A stretch of 64,000 bases of DNA. It comes from Gammaproteobacteria bacterium (lineage in GTDB: Bacteria; Pseudomonadota; Gammaproteobacteria; Pseudomonadales; Pseudohongiellaceae). Shown here piece by piece: positions 36,882-45,428 of the stretch. Below the pieces are notes generated by a model. It had not been told where the DNA came from. It did no database searches and saw nothing but the letters and a program-made list of their open reading frames with translations. A program made the translations under genes and the position numbers. Numbering within the stretch: position 1 is the first letter of the stretch; the number at the start of each line of letters is the position of its first letter. The stretch lies in NCBI GenBank assembly GCA_050486205.1, contig JBJHCW010000008.1, forward strand, positions 5,219 to 69,218, written 5' to 3'.

Positions 36882-38027
36882 TCACAGACACGACACCAGA
36901 TACGCGGCAGCAACGTTTCCACTTTTACCGCAGTGATAAATGTTCTGTTCACGCACTTGCCGGATTCTTTCAGGCCACGCCCTGTTATCCGACATCATCT
37001 GTGATGCCACCGCGCCAAGCGTGTCCAGCGCGGTCTCCGGCACAAGCTCGCCGATCTGCGTGCGAATGCTCGCTTCAAGCGGCTCAATGCCCAGCGCCTC
37101 GTACTCCGGATTCAGCACCTTGCGCGGCACGTCCACAAACAGCACCGGCCGCTCCAGGCCCAGCGCAAACTCCAGCGCAGCGCCGGACCAGTCGCTGACC
37201 ATCAGCGCTGAATCCATCAGCGTCTGTTTGCCATCGGTATTTTCATCGAGCTGGAAGCGCTCATGGCCGGAGAACTCCGCGGTGATGGCCTCCAGCACGG
37301 TCGGGTTGAGCTTGCGTGTGCGCGGATGCGGTCGCAAGACCACATTGAACCCGGCGTTGAGCAATGGACCAATCACGGCAGCGCCATGACGTTCCAGCAG
37401 GGCATGTTCGCCCCAGCTCGGTGCCACAATTATCTGATCGGGGTCGGCATCTGTTATACCTGTTGAGTCCGAACATCTGTCGGCCAGAATGCTGTCCAGA
37501 CGCCCATAACCCGCCTCCACCAACGTTTTGGCAGGCAGACCTTTGGCTTTTTCACGCGCGCGGATTTCCTGCACATGATGAGGCCCCACGCACAGCACGG
37601 CATCAAAGTGGTCAAAGGCGGCCGCGCGGTAGATCATATGAGTGCTGACCATGGAGTGATGCAGGTAGACATAGTGCACATCATGCGGGGAACGCTTGAT
37701 GTGGTAGCTGTGCAGATCCGGCATGGTCATCAGCAGTACACGCGCCTGCAGCCCGGCAAAGAACAGCGTGCGGATGCTGCCCTCACCGATGCAGAAAGGC
37801 ACCAACCCTCGTGGTGGATCGATGCGCAGTGGATCATCCGGGTCTGATGTCACATAAAGAACTGTCTCGCCATGCGTGTCGCGAAGCGCACGAAACACCG
37901 GCTCGAAGTGGGTCCAGTAGCCTCGCCCTTCCGAATAGATGACGATGCGCCGCTGTTGCACCGGCACCGCAAGAAAGCGCCGGTATTCGGCACGCTCCTG
38001 CCGCAGTCGTTTCAACCAGGCAAACAT
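36882..38027 (-). CDS. CDP-glycerol glycerophosphotransferase (TagB/TagF)-family transferase
   Basis: Family motifs IIVAPSWGE, VVLRPHPRT and LMVSDWSGAALEFALGLERPVLFVD. ATG 38025-38027 overlaps the upstream stop by 1 nt (TGATG). The ORF-track extension to 38120 is rejected. Confidence 0.75.
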   Translation of the reverse strand: MFAWLKRLRQERAEYRRFLAVPVQQRRIVIYSEGRGYWTHFEPVFRALRDTHGETVLYVTSDPDDPLRIDPPRGLVPFCIGEGSIRTLFFAGLQARVLLMTMPDLHSYHIKRSPHDVHYVYLHHSMVSTHMIYRAAAFDHFDAVLCVGPHHVQEIRAREKAKGLPAKTLVEAGYGRLDSILADRCSDSTGITDADPDQIIVAPSWGEHALLERHGAAVIGPLLNAGFNVVLRPHPRTRKLNPTVLEAITAEFSGHERFQLDENTDGKQTLMDSALMVSDWSGAALEFALGLERPVLFVDVPRKVLNPEYEALGIEPLEASIRTQIGELVPETALDTLGAVASQMMSDNRAWPERIRQVREQNIYHCGKSGNVAAAYLVSCL

Positions 38028-38809
38028 CAGTCTTCCAGCCGCATGAAACGCTGAAGACTGCCTTCGGCCTGCAGGCGATGAAAGTGCTCCAGGTCCTGCG
38101 CTGTATCCACCTCCAGCCAACCATTGTCGGTGAAGGCGGCGCGCGCCTCCCAGCCAGCGTCGATCAGATACTGCAGAAAGCTGGTCATGTACATATTGTC
38201 GAAATCCTTGCCGTCATACTGCGCCTGCCTGTCCATTGCGTGGTATACCTGGCGCAGTGCCGCCACCTTGTCAGCACGCACTTTCAGCAGCCCCATATAC
38301 TGGCCCTGGATGTCCTCGTAGCCACGGGGCTTCTGGCCCAGCTCCACAATACGCGAGCCGTCCTGAAGCCTGAGTGTTTCCGCATCACTCAATGGGTCGT
38401 CCATGCGCGCCTGCCAGAAACTGCGCCACTGTCGGTCAACAGCAATACACAGCGGGGCCTGGCATTGCAGCACAGCCTGCAGCACGCGCGGTTCATAGAT
38501 GATGTCGGCGTAGCTGATCAGCAGGTCCTGCTCATCATCCATCCACGACTCGGCGCAGAACAGTGTGCTGACCATATTGGTCTCGGCGTATCGCGGGTTC
38601 AGTACCAGCTGCGCATCCTGAAGCTCGAGCCTGTCGCTACGGTAACCACCGACCACCACAGTATCTGTGATACCTGCTGCTTTTATGGTATCCAGCTGTC
38701 GATGAAGCAATGGCACGCCGTGCAGCGCCACCATGCACTTTGGCCTGTCGTTGGTATAGGGACGCAGTCGACTGCCCTGTCCGGCCGCAAGTATGATTAC
38801 GCGCATCAT
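38027..38809 (-). CDS. LicC/Cj1416-type nucleotidyl(cytidylyl)transferase
   Basis: 260-aa ORF with the G-loop ILAAGQGSRLRPYTNDRPKCMV, LLISYADIIY and NMYMTSFLQ. Its ATG overlaps the upstream stop (ATGA 38806-38809). Confidence 0.8.
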   Translation of the reverse strand: MMRVIILAAGQGSRLRPYTNDRPKCMVALHGVPLLHRQLDTIKAAGITDTVVVGGYRSDRLELQDAQLVLNPRYAETNMVSTLFCAESWMDDEQDLLISYADIIYEPRVLQAVLQCQAPLCIAVDRQWRSFWQARMDDPLSDAETLRLQDGSRIVELGQKPRGYEDIQGQYMGLLKVRADKVAALRQVYHAMDRQAQYDGKDFDNMYMTSFLQYLIDAGWEARAAFTDNGWLEVDTAQDLEHFHRLQAEGSLQRFMRLED

Positions 38810-39441
38810 GCGCTCCTGAACAAGGTATCCATCAAGGTGATATCATTTTTATGAAATGGCAGTTCGCGCTCCGGATGCCACATGATGCCAACCCAGGGCA
38901 GATCACTGTGGCTGACGGCTTCCACACTGCTATCGTGGGAGGCTTGTGCACAAATCGTCAACTCCCCGGCAATATCCTGCGCCAACATGCCAAGATTGTG
39001 GTAGCTGTTGACTTCGCGGTGGTTCATGAACAGTGTGTCGCCGGCACGCACCTGCAAGACATGGCGCGTCGCCACATGCCCGCCCAGCTCACGCAGCGAG
39101 CCACCCAGCACACAATTCATCAGCTGCATGCCCCGGCAGACACCCAGCACCGGCAGGCTGCGGCTACGCGCCCATTGCAACAGCAACTGTTCAGTGGCAT
39201 CACGCTCAGGCGCAGGATTCTTCGGGTCCGGCAGATCCGCCAGATCGTTGCCACCACTGAGAATCAGACCTGACACCTGCTGCCGCTCAATCCATGGCAA
39301 CACCCGTTTCAGGTCATTGGGCACCGGCACAACATCAAAACCTGCGGTCTCCAGCAGTACCGACCACTGCTGATCCAGGCAATCACGGCGTTCGCCGTAG
39401 TCGGGCACAAGTTCCACGCGTTGGGTGATGGCTATTTTCAT
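38806..39441 (-). CDS. class I glutamine amidotransferase-like / peptidase C26 gamma-glutamyl hydrolase
   Basis: About 211-aa ORF with nucleophile elbow VLGVCRGMQLMN and GIMWHPE histidine. The start (ATG 39441 or GTG 39444) overlaps the upstream stop. Confidence 0.8.
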   Translation of the reverse strand: MKIAITQRVELVPDYGERRDCLDQQWSVLLETAGFDVVPVPNDLKRVLPWIERQQVSGLILSGGNDLADLPDPKNPAPERDATEQLLLQWARSRSLPVLGVCRGMQLMNCVLGGSLRELGGHVATRHVLQVRAGDTLFMNHREVNSYHNLGMLAQDIAGELTICAQASHDSSVEAVSHSDLPWVGIMWHPERELPFHKNDITLMDTLFRSA

Positions 39442-42400
39442 CACAGGCTCCCCAGTATTCGCCGGTTGACCGGATCCAGCACCAGCGTTGAGGCGCCGCT
39501 GAGCTGCGCGTAACGCGCCTCGCCCACCCCAATGGCCGCTGGCAGGCCAAACTCGGCCGCACGAATTGCCATATGTGAATTGGCGCCGCCGTACATCGTG
39601 ACCAGCCCCGCAATGCCCTGGCCGAACAACCAGTCGTAACCGGGGTCAGCCTGGGGCACCAGCACAATACAGCCGCGGGTCTGCTGATGTGTTGCTGCCG
39701 GATCCAGCTCGATGCACGGCGCGGTAACCGGTGTTGCGCCTACAAAATTCGGTTGGGCCGCCGGATAACGGAATACCGCAAAGTCCGACGCCGCGCTGAT
39801 CAACGGCGGCAATTCAATGGCTCGTGCCTGATGACGCCAGTGTGCACCTTCGCGCGCCCGCACGGCAAGCCAGGCCGCCGTGTCACCGGTGGCAGCACTG
39901 CCGCTGGCAACGGCAAAAATGTCTTCAATGGCAATATTGGACAGCGCTTCCCTGTCCAGTCCCTGCTGCTGACCCCACTGGGCCAGCAACTCAAGCGCCA
40001 TGGAAAGGTTACGGGTAAACAGGAACTTGGCGTATTCGCGACCCTCAATGGCCGTGCGCATGAACTGCTCCACCGCCGCGCCTGCCTGTTTCTCACACAA
40101 ACCGGCCGCTTGCATGGCCTGCGTGAAATCGTTTCGTGCAGCGGCCCATACCTTGCCGGCTGTGCCGCCCTGCCCGGTCGGTTCGGTGGATGCAGCGGCA
40201 ACCACCGGCGCCAGATAACGCTGCGGATCGCTGGCATAACAGTCCGCCGTGATGTCATAGGTACCGGGGCGCAGATGCCCATAACGTTGCACAAATGCCT
40301 GCCATGACAACTCACCGCTGGCGCACAGGCGTGCATCGTCGGAGAGGCGATGGCTCACGGTGCGGATGCCGGCCATGAAATCGTCCATGGCAGCGCTGCT
40401 GATCACGTTCTGCGCCACGGCCGAACGCAGCAGGGCAGCGGCGATGAAGCCGCTGCGCGCCAGGTGGGCAAAAGGCAATACCCCGTGCTCACGCGCGTCA
40501 GCCAGCAACAGCCTCACCCGTTCCAGCGCCGGTGTATCGGCATTGAGGCATTCATCGAAGCGCCGCGTCAGTGTATGGGTGCGGTCAAGATCCTGTTGCG
40601 GGCGCTTCAGGGCGTTTCGGGTAATGTTGAGCAATGAGTGGTGCAGGGTGTCGATCTCTGACGGTGAAAACCCACCCTGGGTCAGGCGCTGGCGCCAGCG
40701 ATCAAAGTCCAGCGCCACGCAGGTGGGCACCACGTCAAATTCCACCTTGTCGTGCAAGGTCGGATTGGCCAGCAACCAGTCAAGACAGAAATCCACCAGC
40801 CTGCCAGCAAGCCCGGCATCAATGTCTGCCGGTACAAAAGAGTTAAAGCTGGCACGCACATCCACATAGGGGTGACCGGCGAAGCTGCGCAGCAGAGGCG
40901 TGGGGCGCAGATCGCGATAGCCGTATTCTGCCCGCTGCCTGGCCCAGCTGTCGTCGGTGACCAGGTAACGATACAGACTGAGGGCCAGGCGTCCTGGTCG
41001 GGTACCGATGATTTCTGCCGGATTCCAGTCCGGCATCAGACCAAACACCGCACGCTGGCCCAGCACCGGAAAGAGTGGCCGCTGAAGGTCATGAAACTGC
41101 TGTTCGGCCTGGTGCAACCATGAGTGGGTATCCGGTTCACTGACGCTCAGTGCGGCGTGATCCACTGCAATCGGGCGCACCTGCAGGATGTGAACCTGCG
41201 ACCGGGCAGCAATGGCAAACTCCACGTCCAGTGAATCGTAGTCAAGCAGGGTCTCGATTTCCTGCAGTGCCGGCACCAGCGGTGCAATCGCCGCAGGTAA
41301 CTGCGCGGCGATCTGCCCGATCCGGTCTCGCCGAATGTACACGGTCTCTTGTTCACCACGCTGACCACTGGTCACCGAACTGGTGCTGCCACTCACGGCG
41401 TCATAATTGATCACGTACCAGGGCGCGCCGTAATCCAGCGTGCGGGTGAACGCCACACCACTGACCTGCACATCGGCCACCATGGGCTGCACCAGCACCT
41501 GGTTGTCTGCATGGCCATCGGGATAGGAGGCAATGACACGATCCACGGCATCGGACACGGCGGCCCGATCCGCAGCAGGCACATCCAGCACAGATGTGTA
41601 GGCGCCGGCATTGGTGCTGGAAAATCCATCCTCGCTGAGCGCGCTGCTGCGCACCACAAGCCGGTGACTGTTGAAGGTCGCCTGCACGGCGTCCAGGGTG
41701 TCTGCCCTGGACGTTTGCCAGTCTGCCACCGTAAAGGCAATCTGATCTTCAATACGGCTCTGGCTCACCAGACCCTGCAGTCGCTGAAGTGTCTGCGCTT
41801 TGGTGCCGAGAATGAAATGGGCAAGGTCCTGGGGTTCATTCAACTCTGCCCAGTCACCTGCAAGGTCCACAGCGCCAACACTGAAACCCTGCATGCGCAA
41901 CCACTCAATCAGCGGCGACAGCTTTGCGCTGCCAAAGCGTTCGGCAACAGTGGCACGGTGTTCGCGCAGATATTTCACAACCGGTGTGGAGAAATGTACC
42001 AGGCCAACAAACTCCGCATTGGCCAGTGTCGGGTCGAGTTCGGCGCCCAGGCGGGTCACAGTGCCATGCGTCACATGTACCTTCTCACAGCGTCGGATGT
42101 CCTGCTCACTTCGCCCGGCGTATCGGCTGCGCCATTGACCGTCCACGGCAATGCTGATGTCAGCACGCGGCGCCAACAGTCGCGTCACCGCCTCACGATG
42201 GAACACAATATCGGCGTAGCACACGATGGCCGGCTGCGCGAGTGCGCGTGTGCTGGCGCCAGTGTCCGCACCATCATCAGCAAAAAGCGGAGCCATCAGC
42301 AGTGATGCGGCCGCGCCGGTATCGAGCCAGTGCTCGTTATCGGTGTAACGCAGTTGCGGGTATTGCGCCTTCACCGCTTCGCCGGCGTAACCGCAGACAA

Positions 42401-42614
42401 AATCCACCTGCCGCGCAAAGTCACTGACCGCAGCCAGCAACCAGTCCAGCACACGCTCTTTTCCATGGGCACTGGCAGCCTCGTCAATGGCGCTGCCGGG
42501 CGAATCGTCCTGGGGCGCATCCTGCAGCACACTGGGCGCCTCCCCGCGAAACGGGGGTCCGGCGCCCAGAATAATGACGGTCCGTTCTGTCAAGGCAATC
42601 CGATCAGTCAACAT
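39441..42614 (-). CDS. PEP-utilising-enzyme-family kinase (ATP-grasp PPDK_N plus C-terminal swivel-His domain) with N-terminal degenerate nucleotidyltransferase domain
   Basis: 1057 aa from ATG 42614. It has LVVRSSALSEDG (ATP-grasp) and the extreme C-terminal GGANSHMAIRAAEFGLPAAIGV (phosphohistidine swivel), with no TIM-barrel PEP domain. The N-terminal 290 aa are paralogous to the neighbouring cytidylyltransferase. Confidence 0.8.
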   Translation of the reverse strand: MLTDRIALTERTVIILGAGPPFRGEAPSVLQDAPQDDSPGSAIDEAASAHGKERVLDWLLAAVSDFARQVDFVCGYAGEAVKAQYPQLRYTDNEHWLDTGAAASLLMAPLFADDGADTGASTRALAQPAIVCYADIVFHREAVTRLLAPRADISIAVDGQWRSRYAGRSEQDIRRCEKVHVTHGTVTRLGAELDPTLANAEFVGLVHFSTPVVKYLREHRATVAERFGSAKLSPLIEWLRMQGFSVGAVDLAGDWAELNEPQDLAHFILGTKAQTLQRLQGLVSQSRIEDQIAFTVADWQTSRADTLDAVQATFNSHRLVVRSSALSEDGFSSTNAGAYTSVLDVPAADRAAVSDAVDRVIASYPDGHADNQVLVQPMVADVQVSGVAFTRTLDYGAPWYVINYDAVSGSTSSVTSGQRGEQETVYIRRDRIGQIAAQLPAAIAPLVPALQEIETLLDYDSLDVEFAIAARSQVHILQVRPIAVDHAALSVSEPDTHSWLHQAEQQFHDLQRPLFPVLGQRAVFGLMPDWNPAEIIGTRPGRLALSLYRYLVTDDSWARQRAEYGYRDLRPTPLLRSFAGHPYVDVRASFNSFVPADIDAGLAGRLVDFCLDWLLANPTLHDKVEFDVVPTCVALDFDRWRQRLTQGGFSPSEIDTLHHSLLNITRNALKRPQQDLDRTHTLTRRFDECLNADTPALERVRLLLADAREHGVLPFAHLARSGFIAAALLRSAVAQNVISSAAMDDFMAGIRTVSHRLSDDARLCASGELSWQAFVQRYGHLRPGTYDITADCYASDPQRYLAPVVAAASTEPTGQGGTAGKVWAAARNDFTQAMQAAGLCEKQAGAAVEQFMRTAIEGREYAKFLFTRNLSMALELLAQWGQQQGLDREALSNIAIEDIFAVASGSAATGDTAAWLAVRAREGAHWRHQARAIELPPLISAASDFAVFRYPAAQPNFVGATPVTAPCIELDPAATHQQTRGCIVLVPQADPGYDWLFGQGIAGLVTMYGGANSHMAIRAAEFGLPAAIGVGEARYAQLSGASTLVLDPVNRRILGSL

Positions 42615-45348
42615 AGTCGATGACCATCTCGTCGGCGCGCAGGCCGAGGCTGCGTGTGTCAGGCGACATACCCAGGTCAGCCGGGGCCAGCGGATCACTG
42701 ATGTTCAGTTGCACGCGCAGCACGTCCTGTCCTTCAATGACCCGGGCCGGCAACAACGCCTGATACCAGTCGGATTCACTGAGCTGCCATTGATCGATTT
42801 CATTGTCATTGACATAAAGTGTGACCTGCTGCTGTGCGAGTACGTCATCCCCCAGAAAAGGCCGGGCAAGCAGGCGCAGTGCCATATCACGCCCCGCGGC
42901 AACAGGTTCGTCCAGTGCAATCTCCAGTACAGCAATTTCGCCGTCGGTCCAGCGATGTGTCGGTTCGGCCAGCGCCCAACCCTCACGTACAAACCGGTCA
43001 GCCTGTGCGCCTTCGGCGAACAGCAGGCTGTCACCGGGTGTATAGAGCGGCAGCGGCTCCAGACGTAGCTGATGCAGGAAGATGCCAAGACGCCTGTCAT
43101 CGGTGCCAGCAAGGTGTTCCACCTGAGACACGGCATCGGGCAACTCCAGCACCACATTCAGACTGCTGGCATTGCCACGAATTGCCTCACTGATCTCCAG
43201 TTCATACCAGCGCGACTCACTGACCACCCAGTCTGCAACGTGCTCACCGTCAATGCGGACATGCACGCGTTGCGCATCCACAATATCATCAATCAGAAAA
43301 GGCGCCAGTTGCATTGATATTGTGAACCGCCCCTCCACTGACTCGGCCAGCGGCAGGTTGATGATGGCGCGGCGGCCATCACTCCAGAAACCGTCACGCT
43401 CCTGCCCACTCCAGCCTGACCCCAACACCTCATGGCCGGGGCTGCCGTCATGGAATCGCAACAGCTGCCCTTCTGCCAACGGCTGGAGCCGGGCGGCCTG
43501 TGTCGGCTCTGCCACAGCCTCGCCCACCAACTGCTCCCCACTTGCCTGCCAGGACTGTGGCAGCCAGCTGTGACCCAGCACCCGGTACTCGGTCATTGCC
43601 GGCAGGTAGTCATCGGTCCAGCCGTCGAACCGGTATTGCAGGTAACGACGTTCGCGCGCCTCACTGTTGCTATAGGGCCAGTTGTCACTGAAAAGGTCAT
43701 GACCATCAAGTGCTGCCGAAGAATCCACCGTGGCCATCAGGGTGGCGGCCAGATCCGCCACCGACGCCGGCCGCTCACTGATCTGCAGCTCACCCGTGGC
43801 CCCGGGCGGCTTGAGCAGCATCAGCGCCAGTCCGGACTCATGATGACTGGATGGCAGCCGGAGCTGTTGTGGCTCGCCCAGATCCGGTGGCAGCGTTGTG
43901 GCGTTTACACCCACACCGTACTCACCACCGCCGTGCTCTGACACGATGGCAATAAAACTGTTGTTGTACACATTCAAGGCGCGTAGTTGGTCCAGAAACC
44001 GGCGCATGAGATTCAGGCTCGCCACCGAGTGCCGATAGAATCCCTCGCGGTCTATTGACATGTTTTCCATTTCCAGCGCCTCATTGAGCAGGAACGGCGC
44101 GTGGGGCACAAACAGGTGATAGAAACGAAAAGTGGGCGCACTGGCACCAACCGAGGACAAGGCCTCCATATCTTCCAGCCAACGCATACTGTCATGGGGA
44201 TGGTCGCTACGCGGGAGGTTACGCGGGAGATTGTTGCCGGCAGCAGGCCCGGCACTGTCATCACCCAGCGGCAGTTGTGTCACCCAACGGCGGGCGCGCC
44301 ATTCATGATCATTGAGCCAACGTGGTTTCAGGAAATGAGGAATGACCCTGAACAACCCCACATCCACAAATTCACCGAACGCCGCCATGCGATCGGACTC
44401 GCTGCGATCACGGACAAAATTGCTGGCCACACGCTCGTCAAAGTGGAAAGTGCGCGGAAACAACGGATGCAGGCCCACATCCCAGCCCTGGGCGAGCAGG
44501 CGCTGCGGCACCGAGCCGTCCAGATACGCGCGGCGCATGAACGACAACATGGGTTCGGTGTTCTCGTACCACTGACCGGACAACATCAGGGGAATGGAAG
44601 GGTAGGTCTTGGCATAACCGGCCAGTGTATCGCGGAACCAGGTGAAACCCTGGAAATCCTGACGGTACGCCGGCTCATTGCTGATGATTTCACCCAGCAC
44701 ATCAGACTGAAAGGCATCCAGCACCACCACGATGATGTTGCTGTCCTCCGAGTAAGTGAACTGCTCATCATCCAGCGCTGTGTAAAAGTGATGGCTTGGT
44801 GGCTGGGGCGCCTGCCGAACGGTGAAGGTCAGTCCGGCGGCCTGCACGGCCAGTAGTGCCACACACAGGGTCACGGCGTTGGCAGCAATGGCGGCGGAGA
44901 AACGCCAGGCTACAAGCATGGCGGAAAACCACACCACCAATTCGAACACGCCGTGCCAGGTGTAGTCCCGCCAGTTGATGGCACCGCCATCCAGCACACC
45001 ATAATCCTGCACCAGCAGGTTGGCCTGCAACCAGGCCGCCAGTGCAAGCATGACCAGTGTGCTGAGGGCCAGCGTACGCCATCGGGCAGCAAGTGTGTGG
45101 TTCACCAGCATGCTGGCAGCCAGGGCCAGCAAGAACAGCAGGGCGCTGAGCAGCACAACAAGCACTGCCGCAGGTGCGATCAGATCAGCCCAGGCCACAC
45201 TGAAGTCATGCACATTGCCGAAATACACGGTCAATGCCGGAAACAGCACGGCGGTGAGGACAACAGTGACCGAAGCCAGCAACATTGGCCCCGGCAACAG
45301 GGCTGCCATCCGGGTTCTGCCCGGGGATCTGTGTAATTGCTTCGGCAT
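42604..45348 (-). CDS. LtaS/sulfatase-family (alkaline-phosphatase superfamily) membrane phosphotransferase with duplicated C-terminal beta-rich domain
   Basis: It has about 5 N-terminal TM segments and a sulfatase core beginning NIIVVVLDAFQSD. Two homologous C-terminal modules of about 125 aa follow. ATG 45348 is preceded by GGGAG (the ORF-track GTG is at 45363). Confidence 0.75.
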   Translation of the reverse strand: MPKQLHRSPGRTRMAALLPGPMLLASVTVVLTAVLFPALTVYFGNVHDFSVAWADLIAPAAVLVVLLSALLFLLALAASMLVNHTLAARWRTLALSTLVMLALAAWLQANLLVQDYGVLDGGAINWRDYTWHGVFELVVWFSAMLVAWRFSAAIAANAVTLCVALLAVQAAGLTFTVRQAPQPPSHHFYTALDDEQFTYSEDSNIIVVVLDAFQSDVLGEIISNEPAYRQDFQGFTWFRDTLAGYAKTYPSIPLMLSGQWYENTEPMLSFMRRAYLDGSVPQRLLAQGWDVGLHPLFPRTFHFDERVASNFVRDRSESDRMAAFGEFVDVGLFRVIPHFLKPRWLNDHEWRARRWVTQLPLGDDSAGPAAGNNLPRNLPRSDHPHDSMRWLEDMEALSSVGASAPTFRFYHLFVPHAPFLLNEALEMENMSIDREGFYRHSVASLNLMRRFLDQLRALNVYNNSFIAIVSEHGGGEYGVGVNATTLPPDLGEPQQLRLPSSHHESGLALMLLKPPGATGELQISERPASVADLAATLMATVDSSAALDGHDLFSDNWPYSNSEARERRYLQYRFDGWTDDYLPAMTEYRVLGHSWLPQSWQASGEQLVGEAVAEPTQAARLQPLAEGQLLRFHDGSPGHEVLGSGWSGQERDGFWSDGRRAIINLPLAESVEGRFTISMQLAPFLIDDIVDAQRVHVRIDGEHVADWVVSESRWYELEISEAIRGNASSLNVVLELPDAVSQVEHLAGTDDRRLGIFLHQLRLEPLPLYTPGDSLLFAEGAQADRFVREGWALAEPTHRWTDGEIAVLEIALDEPVAAGRDMALRLLARPFLGDDVLAQQQVTLYVNDNEIDQWQLSESDWYQALLPARVIEGQDVLRVQLNISDPLAPADLGMSPDTRSLGLRADEMVIDYVD

Positions 45349-45428
45349 GGAGCTCCCTTTCACCGATCATGTCGTCCGAGATGACGGCCCAATGATACAG
45401 GAATTGGATCGGTGCCACATTGGCGGGT

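What the first reader, a model, noticed from the sequence alone, without database searches (positions are those of the whole stretch)
41745..42614. The kinase carries an N-terminal, apparently degenerate copy of the neighbouring cytidylyltransferase
Residues 1-290 of the 1057-aa protein align by eye with the stand-alone transferase. IVCYADIVFHREAV..ISIAVDGQWRSRY matches LLISYADIIYEPRV..LCIAVDRQWRSFW, EFVGLVHFS matches QYMGLLKVR, and GDWAELNEPQDLAHF matches NGWLEVDTAQDLEHF. The nucleotide-binding G-loop, however, is ILGAGPPFRGE instead of LAAGQGSRLRP..PK, and it is followed by a roughly 30-residue acidic insertion. As far as I recall, Cj1418 has no such domain. It may be a substrate-channelling or scaffold pseudo-enzyme that docks the true cytidylyltransferase or binds CTP or the product.
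Basis: seen in the sequence. Interest (0 to 1): 0.6.

Follow-up and report, generated by a model that had tools for sequence, protein, structure and literature searches.

The report
Dead cytidylyltransferase domain on glutamine kinase
The first ~267 residues of this 1057-residue glutamine-kinase-like enzyme are a well-conserved cytidylyltransferase-fold domain that has lost its catalytic motif. The fusion is widespread and apparently undescribed, and it always sits beside a separate, intact cytidylyltransferase gene.

Summary
Residues 1-267 of the 1057-aa protein (window 39441-42614, minus strand) are homologous over their full length to the neighbouring 260-aa transferase (BLASTP E 6e-14; hhalign 99.1%, E 7e-19). 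They fold as a GT-A-type cytidylyltransferase (pLDDT 87; Foldseek E 1e-12).

The catalytic signature is gone:
- The G-x-G-x-R Arg is replaced by an invariant Pro.
- Five loop residues are deleted.
- The P-K Lys is lost.
- An Asp invariant in the two canonical groups I compared is Asn.

The rest of the pocket is conserved. dN/dS (0.11-0.15) equals that of the kinase part, so the domain is maintained, not decaying.

It is not a recent copy of the neighbour. It is an old paralogous clade, present in 131 of the 150 best cluster representatives and in many phyla. In 49 of 52 fused loci a separate canonical transferase and a glutaminase-type hydrolase follow; the other three loci are cut short.

Kinases without this domain almost always come with a Cj1415-like APS-kinase domain and never with the TagF-like transferase.

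Best reading: a ligand-binding pseudo-enzyme that regulates the kinase or hands over its product. The function is inferred, not shown. It is a new variant of a known pathway.

The parts
41814..42614 (-). N-terminal cytidylyltransferase-fold pseudo-enzyme domain (residues 1-267)
   Evidence: BLASTP E 6e-14; hhalign 99.1%; AF2 pLDDT 87.3; Foldseek hits to IPCT, GlmU and PntC; Pfam NTP_transf_3 only 17 bits against a cut-off of 27
42525..42572 (-). Remnant of the nucleotide-binding G-loop (residues 15-30, ILGAGPPFRGEAPSVL)
   Evidence: Family consensus is LGAG[RK]P..G..[HP][ST].L. The canonical Arg is replaced by Pro21, five residues are deleted and the P-K Lys is lost
42459..42524 (-). Lineage-specific acidic, disordered insertion (residues 31-52)
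   Evidence: Absent from most homologues and shorter in L089/L090; pLDDT below 50 at residues 32-53
42234..42284 (-). Second lineage-specific insertion (residues 111-127, FADDGADTGASTRALAQ)
   Evidence: Alignments; pLDDT 62-71
39441..41813 (-). Cj1418-type L-glutamine kinase part (residues 268-1057 plus stop): ATP-grasp, central domain and swivelling His domain
   Evidence: NCBIfam NF004508 857 bits against a cut-off of 501, residues 262-1053; Pfam PPDK_N and PEP-utilizers; Foldseek to rifampin phosphotransferase E 7e-19; GGANSH motif with H1014 invariant
38806..39444 (-). Cj1417-like class-I glutamine amidotransferase/hydrolase; its start overlaps the kinase stop
   Evidence: Pfam Peptidase_C26 and GATase; NCBIfam gamma-glutamyl-CDP-amidate hydrolase 112 bits, below the cut-off of 250; overlap seen
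38027..38809 (-). Stand-alone canonical cytidylyltransferase (Cj1416-like, 260 aa) with an intact AAGQGSRLRP...PK loop
   Evidence: Pfam NTP_transf_3 63.9 bits; best PDB match by sequence is LicC 1JYK, E 1.8e-12
36882..38120 (-). TagF-like (CDP-glycerol glycerophosphotransferase family) protein. The true start is probably near 38027, as the relatives' genes are 381 aa
   Evidence: Pfam Glyphos_transf 23.4 bits; gene calls in L089/L090
42604..45363 (-). Upstream 919-aa membrane protein of the sulfatase/LtaS type, overlapping the kinase start
   Evidence: Pfam Sulfatase 26.7 bits; overlap seen

Best explanation
Residues 1-267 are a catalytically inactivated cytidylyltransferase-fold domain that selection still maintains. 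It joins the ATP-grasp domain of a Cj1418-type L-glutamine kinase with only a three-residue turn between helices.

The pathway's real CTP:phosphoglutamine cytidylyltransferase is the separate 260-aa protein two genes downstream.

The domain has lost the triphosphate-activating loop. It keeps the residues that line the rest of the pocket: the GAG end of strand 1, GY, N93, Y133-x-D135, D158-xx-W161, R168, E177, W255-x-E257 and D263.

I therefore infer that it still binds a cytidine nucleotide or a phosphoglutamine-type ligand, such as CDP-L-glutamine, cytidine diphosphoramidate or glutamine phosphate. I further infer that it uses this binding to tune the ATP-consuming first step. The model is the inactive paralogue GMPPA, which senses GDP-mannose for GMPPB.

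Shown here: homology, fold, loss of the catalytic residues, purifying selection, and constant co-occurrence with an intact transferase.

Inferred: ligand binding and the regulatory effect.
For: Homology and fold.

Loss of catalytic residues: four positions that are at least 80% conserved in both canonical groups (partner genes and stand-alone relatives) are deleted or replaced in the fused domains. In P0002 numbering these are G12, R14, K24 and D235. In the HMMER alignment to GlmU, the canonical Arg aligns with invariant Pro21 and the P-K Lys with Ser. Pfam no longer recognises the domain.

Retained pocket: 16 positions are conserved across all three groups, including Y-x-D and W-x-E.

Selection: dN/dS is 0.11-0.15 for the domain and 0.12-0.14 for the kinase part. 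37 columns are invariant among 25 diverse fusions.

Context: 49 of 52 fused loci carry a separate canonical-loop transferase and the hydrolase. The other three are cut off by contig ends or lack upstream sequence. No locus shows the fused domain replacing the partner.

Rigid junction: helix 261-268 runs into kinase helix 272-279, and the full-length model has pTM 0.78.

Precedent: GMPPA/GMPPB structures are among the fold matches.
Against: - No binding or activity data exist.
- The tools give no coordinates, so pocket conservation is read from alignments, not from a model with a ligand.
- The basic residue after GAG, present in most family members, is Pro in this window. If that residue matters for ligand binding, this lineage differs.
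- A conserved pocket would also fit a residual, non-canonical catalytic activity.
- dS is about 1.2, near saturation, so the dN/dS values are approximate.
Confidence: 0.45

Rival explanations
1. Docking or channelling scaffold. The dead domain pairs with its active paralogue (the 260-aa transferase) or with the hydrolase. The labile N-phospho-glutamine made by the kinase then passes directly to the next enzyme. Ligand binding by the domain itself is not needed.
For: The domain always co-occurs and is co-transcribed with the partner transferase and the hydrolase. Other pathway enzymes are fused at the same N-terminal position in other lineages: an APS-kinase-like domain in 12 loci and an HxGH cytidylyltransferase-like domain in one. 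This suggests that physical coupling to the kinase is favoured. From general knowledge, inactive paralogues of this fold commonly form hetero-oligomers (GMPPA/GMPPB, ADP-glucose pyrophosphorylase subunits).
Against: Conservation is concentrated on pocket residues shared with active enzymes, which a pure docking surface would not require. On the tree the fused domain is not close to the partner clade.
Confidence: 0.25
2. The domain is an active, non-canonical nucleotidyltransferase, so the protein is bifunctional. The separate transferase would then do a different job.
For: Y133-x-D135, W255-x-E257 and the GAG turn are kept. Most family members have Lys or Arg right after GAG. A minority of distant fusions keep a long loop with P-K (P0321, P0320, P0302, P0291). 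Purifying selection is strong.
Against: The Arg, the Lys and the second Asp, each conserved in at least 90% of both canonical groups compared, are all missing. The position after GAG varies across representatives (A, P, L, H, Q, S, T and others) and is Pro in this window. Every locus with context keeps a canonical partner, including the long-loop fusions L051 and L061.
Confidence: 0.12
3. A decaying relic of a former bifunctional enzyme, with no present function.
For: The catalytic motif is lost. This lineage has variable, disordered insertions. Two genomes show frameshifts in the domain (L043, L048).
Against: dN/dS is as low as in the kinase part. 37 columns are invariant across 25 diverse fusions. 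The domain is retained across many phyla. The fold is predicted with confidence.
Confidence: 0.03

Closest known systems
Cj1418 L-glutamine kinase of Campylobacter jejuni (O-methyl phosphoramidate pathway; NCBIfam NF004508)
   Same: Residues 262-1053 match the model at 857 bits against a cut-off of 501. They have the same three-domain ATP-grasp / central / swivelling-His layout and are followed by Cj1417-like and Cj1416-like genes.
   Different: This protein carries an extra 267-residue N-terminal domain that the 789-position model does not cover. No Cj1415-like kinase gene lies in the window, and the only APS-kinase domains in the genome lie on other contigs in open frames of 669, 683 and 391 aa. 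A TagF-like transferase is present instead.
Cj1416 / LicC-type cytidylyltransferases (CTP:phosphoglutamine and CTP:phosphocholine cytidylyltransferases; PDB 1JYK)
   Same: Same fold and same family-specific motifs (YxD, VDxxWRxxxxxR, W.E..xxDL). Profile homology E 7e-19.
   Different: The G-x-G-x-R...P-K signature is destroyed, the conserved Asp is Asn, the Pfam score is below threshold, and the domain is fused to a kinase rather than free-standing.
GMPPA, the inactive paralogue of GDP-mannose pyrophosphorylase (PDB 7D72-7D74)
   Same: A nucleotidyltransferase-fold protein with a damaged signature loop that coexists with an active paralogue. It is among the fold matches. From the literature, it binds the pathway product and regulates the active enzyme.
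   Different: GMPPA is a separate eukaryotic subunit that acts on its own paralogue. Here the dead domain is fused to the upstream kinase. Ligand binding and regulation are not shown here.
PntC-AEPT and Fom1-type fusions (cytidylyltransferase fused to another pathway enzyme)
   Same: A cytidylyltransferase-fold domain is fused to another enzyme of a phosphorus-group pathway. PntC-AEPT (6PD1) is a top fold match.
   Different: From the literature, the transferase domain in those fusions is active and no separate copy is needed. Here it lacks the catalytic motif and a separate copy is always present.

Membership tests
GT-A-like sugar/phospho-alcohol nucleotidyltransferases (Pfam NTP_transferase / NTP_transf_3; LicC-Cj1416 group) | Alpha/beta nucleotidyltransferase fold | tested here: met
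   AF2 pLDDT 87.3; Foldseek to IPCT 4jd0 E 2.7e-12, also GlmU, PntC and RmlA
GT-A-like sugar/phospho-alcohol nucleotidyltransferases (Pfam NTP_transferase / NTP_transf_3; LicC-Cj1416 group) | Signature loop G-x-G-x-R-x(n)-P-K with the catalytic Arg and Lys | tested here: not met
   The loop is GAGPPFRGEAPS. Arg is replaced by invariant Pro21, five residues are deleted and Lys is lost. The same holds in 93% of fused domains
GT-A-like sugar/phospho-alcohol nucleotidyltransferases (Pfam NTP_transferase / NTP_transf_3; LicC-Cj1416 group) | Acidic residues of the Y-x-D and E-x-D motifs (metal and phosphate site) | tested here: inconclusive
   Y133-x-D135 and E257 are kept. The Asp that is 100% conserved in both canonical groups (P0002 D235) is N259 here and Asn in 67% of fusions. 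Assigning these as metal ligands rests on general knowledge of the family
GT-A-like sugar/phospho-alcohol nucleotidyltransferases (Pfam NTP_transferase / NTP_transf_3; LicC-Cj1416 group) | Score above the curated family threshold | tested here: not met
   NTP_transf_3 17 bits against 27; NTP_transferase 11 bits against 21
L-glutamine kinase (Cj1418 type, NF004508) | Equivalog model score above the cut-off over the full model | tested here: met
   857 bits against 501; model positions 4-785 of 789
L-glutamine kinase (Cj1418 type, NF004508) | Swivelling phospho-histidine domain with a conserved His, plus an ATP-grasp domain | tested here: met
   PEP-utilizers 50 bits, PPDK_N 39.5 bits; GGANSH with H1014 invariant in 47 sequences; fold match to rifampin phosphotransferase
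L-glutamine kinase (Cj1418 type, NF004508) | Phosphorylates the amide N of L-glutamine | not testable with these tools
   Needs an enzyme assay
L-glutamine kinase (Cj1418 type, NF004508) | Genomic association with Cj1417-like hydrolase and Cj1416-like transferase genes | tested here: met
   Both follow directly in the window. The partner transferase is present in 76 and the hydrolase in 73 of the 81 loci examined
Regulatory pseudo-nucleotidyltransferases (GMPPA type) | Catalytic motif damaged while the fold and the paralogous active enzyme are retained | tested here: met
Regulatory pseudo-nucleotidyltransferases (GMPPA type) | Binds the pathway nucleotide product and changes the activity of a partner enzyme | not testable with these tools
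   Needs binding and kinetic experiments

The most novel reading that the evidence does not exclude
The dead cytidylyltransferase domain marks a second, phylogenetically broad type of phosphoramidate pathway. This type lacks the Cj1415 3'-kinase, and a TagF-like enzyme uses cytidine diphosphoramidate directly. In it the pseudo-enzyme senses the CDP-linked product and throttles the glutamine kinase. This would be a bacterial, fused counterpart of GMPPA-type allosteric pseudo-enzymes.
Probability: 0.25. Interest if true: 0.7.

Novelty: new variant of a known kind. Interest (0 to 1): 0.5.

Why it matters
[quoted passage not shown]' (PMC6429109). All 23 held papers that mention glutamine kinase either deal with Campylobacter or mention it only in passing.

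This analysis found relatives of the kinase in at least 579 species genomes across many bacterial phyla and some archaea. Most close relatives carry this extra domain.

Recognising the domain as an inactive but maintained paralogue has three uses:
- It explains confusing public names such as 'choline kinase' and 'PEP-utilizing enzyme'.
- It prevents annotating the protein as a bifunctional kinase/transferase.
- It gives a concrete, testable case of a pseudo-enzyme fused to the first enzyme of a pathway that handles labile P-N intermediates.

The co-distribution with a TagF-like transferase, and the near-absence of a Cj1415-type kinase, points to a pathway variant that has not been characterised.

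Tried and rejected
- **Recent tandem copy of the neighbour: rejected.** The fused domains and the partner genes form separate old clades.
- **Closest canonical relatives as a pre-fusion state: rejected.** P0154 and P0165 lie in phosphonate and CDP-alcohol clusters with no glutamine kinase nearby.
- **Fusions with a near-canonical long loop lack a separate transferase: not supported.** L051 and L061 still have one. The clearest long-loop representatives (P0321, P0320, P0302, P0291) could not be placed in genomic context.
- **Stand-alone versions of the degenerate domain: none found.** Every short hit with a degenerate loop that reaches its C-terminal end runs on into the kinase motif LGTKA, so it is a fragment of a fusion. 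P0132 breaks off before that point.
- **Statistical test of domain presence against Cj1415-like or TagF-like genes: no power.** The domain state changes only 2-4 times on the kinase tree, so the co-distribution is descriptive only.
- **Raushel-group papers** (PMC5629633, PMC5938751, PMC6643271) are not held. Cj1418's own length could not be read and rests on the NCBIfam model length and on memory.
- **PF27448**, precomputed for some homologues, is not in the local Pfam copy.
- **A profile of the domain against PDB sequences** gave only a weak GlmU hit, E 4.6e-4.
Full report
**What is there.** On the minus strand, five genes overlap stop-to-start or nearly so:
- a 919-aa sulfatase/LtaS-type membrane protein (42604..45363);
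- the 1057-aa protein in question (39441..42614);
- a 212-aa class-I amidotransferase-type hydrolase (38806..39444);
- a 260-aa nucleotidyltransferase (38027..38809);
- a TagF-like protein (36882..38120).

The ATG at 42614 is the likely start. It overlaps the upstream stop, and the two nearest relatives begin at the aligned position.

**The kinase part.** Residues 262-1053 match NCBIfam NF004508 at 857 bits against a cut-off of 501. I recall this 789-position equivalog model as the one containing Cj1418; its own description reads 'hypothetical protein'. Pfam finds PPDK_N and the PEP-utilizers swivelling domain. The full-length AlphaFold2 model (pLDDT 84.2, pTM 0.78) matches rifampin phosphotransferase at E 7e-19. 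The His of the GGANSH motif is invariant in 47 homologues.

**Check of the observation.** Residues 1-291 align with the 260-aa protein at BLASTP E 6e-14, 24% identity over 219 residues. A profile of 25 N-domains aligns with it at hhalign probability 99.1%, E 6.8e-19, over 222 columns from residue 12 to 267. The domain alone folds with pLDDT 87.3 and pTM 0.86. It matches inositol-1-phosphate cytidylyltransferase, GlmU, PntC and RmlA at E 1e-12 to 1e-9. The homology is therefore real and covers the whole domain.

The domain ends at about residue 267. Helix 261-268 is followed after three residues by helix 272-279, which already belongs to the kinase (LGTKAQTL).

The acidic stretch is residues 31-53, with pLDDT below 50 at 32-53. 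It is about 16 residues longer than in typical family members and about 11 longer than in the closest relatives, so 'roughly 30' is too high. It is a lineage-specific disordered loop. A second insertion at 111-127 behaves the same way.

**Is the catalytic site dead?** I aligned three groups: 46 fused domains (one long-branch outlier left out), 75 operon-partner transferases and 20 stand-alone relatives. Positions at least 80% conserved in both canonical groups but deleted or replaced in the fused domains include these (P0002 numbering):
- G12 and R14, a gap in 93% of fusions;
- K24 of the P-K motif, Ser in 61% and P27/S28 here;
- D235, Asn in 67% and N259 here.

HMMER's alignment of the domain profile to GlmU puts the canonical Arg opposite the invariant Pro21 and the P-K Lys opposite Ser. 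Either alignment removes both basic residues. From general knowledge of GlmU, RmlA and LicC, these residues hold the triphosphate.

The family consensus is LGAG[RK]P..G..[HP][ST].L. The residue after GAG varies across representatives and is Pro in this window. Pfam scores the domain at 17 bits against a cut-off of 27, and only from profile position 19 onward. This explains why public annotation shows only the two kinase domains.

Sixteen positions are conserved in all three groups: A18, G19, G75, Y76, N93, L105, Y133, D135, D158, W161, R168, E177, G204, W255, E257 and D263. The part of the pocket away from the triphosphate loop is therefore kept.

**Is it decaying?** No. Against the two nearest relatives (L089, L090, about 75% identity), dN/dS is 0.11-0.15 for the domain and 0.12-0.14 for the kinase part. 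dS is about 1.2, so the values are approximate. Thirty-seven columns are invariant among 25 diverse fusions.

**Distribution.**
- All 120 best hits in the 90%-clustered protein collection are 983-1057 aa and cover at least 94% of the query. Named sources include Pseudomonas, Marinobacter, Halomonas, Legionella, Spiribacter and Natronospira. Public names range from 'PEP-utilizing enzyme' to 'choline kinase' and 'glutamine kinase'.
- Among 50%-identity representatives, 4526 match at E up to 1e-3 and 1596 at E up to 1e-30. Of the best 150, 131 carry the domain and 19 do not; 17 of those 19 are full-length kinases of 763-824 aa.
- A scan of one genome per species found at least 579 loci. The best 80 span Pseudomonadota, Bacteroidota, Spirochaetota, Planctomycetota, Cyanobacteria, Chloroflexota, Actinomycetota, Verrucomicrobiota, Bacillota, Acidobacteriota, Bdellovibrionota, Haloferax and a Woesearchaeote.
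- Within the window's own lineage the gene is present in all five genomes of the genus and in none of 36 other genomes of the family and order. This fits a patchy surface-modification cluster.

**Context.** I annotated the 80 loci plus the window with my own HMMs.

| Kinase architecture | Loci | Separate canonical transferase | Hydrolase | TagF-like gene | Separate APS-kinase-like gene |
|---|---|---|---|---|---|
| Fused to the cytidylyltransferase-fold domain | 52 | 49 | 49 | 31 | 3 |
| Unfused | 15 | 14 | 13 | 0 | 12 |
| Fused to an APS-kinase-like domain | 12 | 11 | 9 | 0 | 0 (domain is in the fusion) |
| Fused to an HxGH cytidylyltransferase-like domain | 1 | 1 | 1 | 0 | 1 |
| 5'-truncated, architecture unknown (L012) | 1 | 1 | 1 | 1 | 0 |

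- The separate transferase has the loop AAGxGxRLxPxTxxxPKC.
- The three fused loci without a partner or hydrolase (L029, L035, L060) end at a contig edge or lack upstream sequence.
- One locus counted as unfused (L048) is really a fusion with a frameshift.
- The APS-kinase-like fusion has an intact P-loop (GLSGAGKTT) and occurs mainly in Acidobacteriota. It looks like a Cj1415 counterpart.

The fused domain therefore never replaces the partner transferase. It is close to mutually exclusive with a Cj1415-like kinase. The TagF-like gene is seen only with the fused form, and once at a locus whose kinase start is cut off. This association is clade-structured: the domain state changes only 2-4 times on the kinase tree, so no valid significance test is possible. 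The 80 loci are also biased toward relatives of the window's kinase.

**Origin.** On a tree of the transferase-fold sequences, 46 of 47 fused domains form one clade (SH-aLRT 98). That clade groups with LicC-like stand-alone enzymes (100) and is separate from the operon-partner clade. The stand-alones were chosen by similarity to the domain, which biases that grouping. The separation from the partner clade is not affected by this bias.

The nearest canonical stand-alones (about 33% identity, GAGRGIRLMPETESIPKC loop) sit in phosphonate or CDP-alcohol clusters without a glutamine kinase. A minority of distant fusions keep a long loop, some with P-K. This suggests the domain was active when first fused. 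The two long-loop fusions seen in context still have a partner.

**Mechanism.** The evidence shows a folded, conserved domain that lacks the triphosphate loop, keeps the rest of the pocket, is joined almost directly to the ATP-grasp domain, and is always accompanied by the active paralogue.

My preferred reading (0.45) is a ligand-binding pseudo-enzyme that couples the level of a CDP-linked intermediate, or of glutamine phosphate, to the activity of the first, ATP-consuming step. GMPPA is the model. A docking or channelling role (0.25) is the main rival, and the two are not exclusive. Residual non-canonical catalysis (0.12) is unlikely, and a functionless relic (0.03) is contradicted by selection. 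That the domain is catalytically dead yet functional I hold at about 0.75.

**Literature.** All 23 held papers that mention glutamine kinase either deal with Campylobacter or mention it only in passing. None describes this architecture. One review states that the modification is known only from Campylobacter. The original Raushel papers are not held. Subscription literature was not searched, so prior description cannot be excluded.

An unmethylated phosphoramide group is reported on the Xanthomonas campestris LOS core. This is a lead for the cluster's product class and was not tested here.

Noticed in passing
L062, L067-L069, L071, L073-L077, L079, L082 (kinase ORFs, first ~210 residues): In Acidobacteriota-type and some other genomes the glutamine-kinase homologue carries a different N-terminal fusion. 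It is an APS-kinase-like P-loop domain (VFWITGLSGAGKTT...), probably the counterpart of Cj1415 cytidine diphosphoramidate kinase.
   Followed up: partly
L070:9464-12376: A Woesearchaeote kinase homologue has an N-terminal HxGH (TagD-like) cytidylyltransferase-type segment (...GDIFHYGHLKLL...). This is a third kind of N-terminal fusion.
   Followed up: no
window 36882-38120 and loci L005, L011, L012, L021-L028, L030, L032-L034, L036-L038, L041, L043, L046, L059: A TagF-like (Glyphos_transf) gene accompanies 31 of 52 kinases with the cytidylyltransferase-fold domain and none of the 28 scored kinases without it. It may be the enzyme that transfers the phosphoramidate from CDP-amidate.
   Followed up: partly
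window 36882-38120: The 412-aa ORF is probably too long at its 5' end. The orthologues in L089 and L090 are called at 381 aa and start at the stop of the transferase gene.
   Followed up: partly
L061 (Haloferax elongans): An archaeal genome carries a fused kinase whose N-domain keeps a long loop (AAGRGIRRLDTEESKPTP). It also has a separate canonical transferase and an APS-kinase-like gene.
   Followed up: no
L043:8758-10467 and L048:4530-4985: In two metagenome-assembled genomes the N-domain lies in a different frame from the kinase. This is either a frameshift or an assembly error.
   Followed up: no
G000-G040: The fused kinase is present in all five genomes of the window's genus. It is absent from 36 other genomes of the same family and order, so its distribution is patchy.
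   Followed up: partly
P0008, P0011, P0013, P0015 and others: A precomputed Pfam family, PF27448, is listed for about a sixth of the fused homologues. It is absent from the local Pfam copy, so its position and meaning are unknown.
   Followed up: partly
G000:C7:46409-46855, G000:C6:146396-146845 and G000:C4:174316-174462: The only APS-kinase domains in the window's genome lie on other contigs, in open frames of 669, 683 and 391 aa (the third only at the family's cut-off, 21.1 bits). No dedicated Cj1415-like gene is near the cluster.
   Followed up: no
L084:10984-12609: Near the closest canonical stand-alone relative (P0154) lies a PEP-mutase/NTP_transf_3 fusion in a phosphonate-type glycan cluster.
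   Followed up: no
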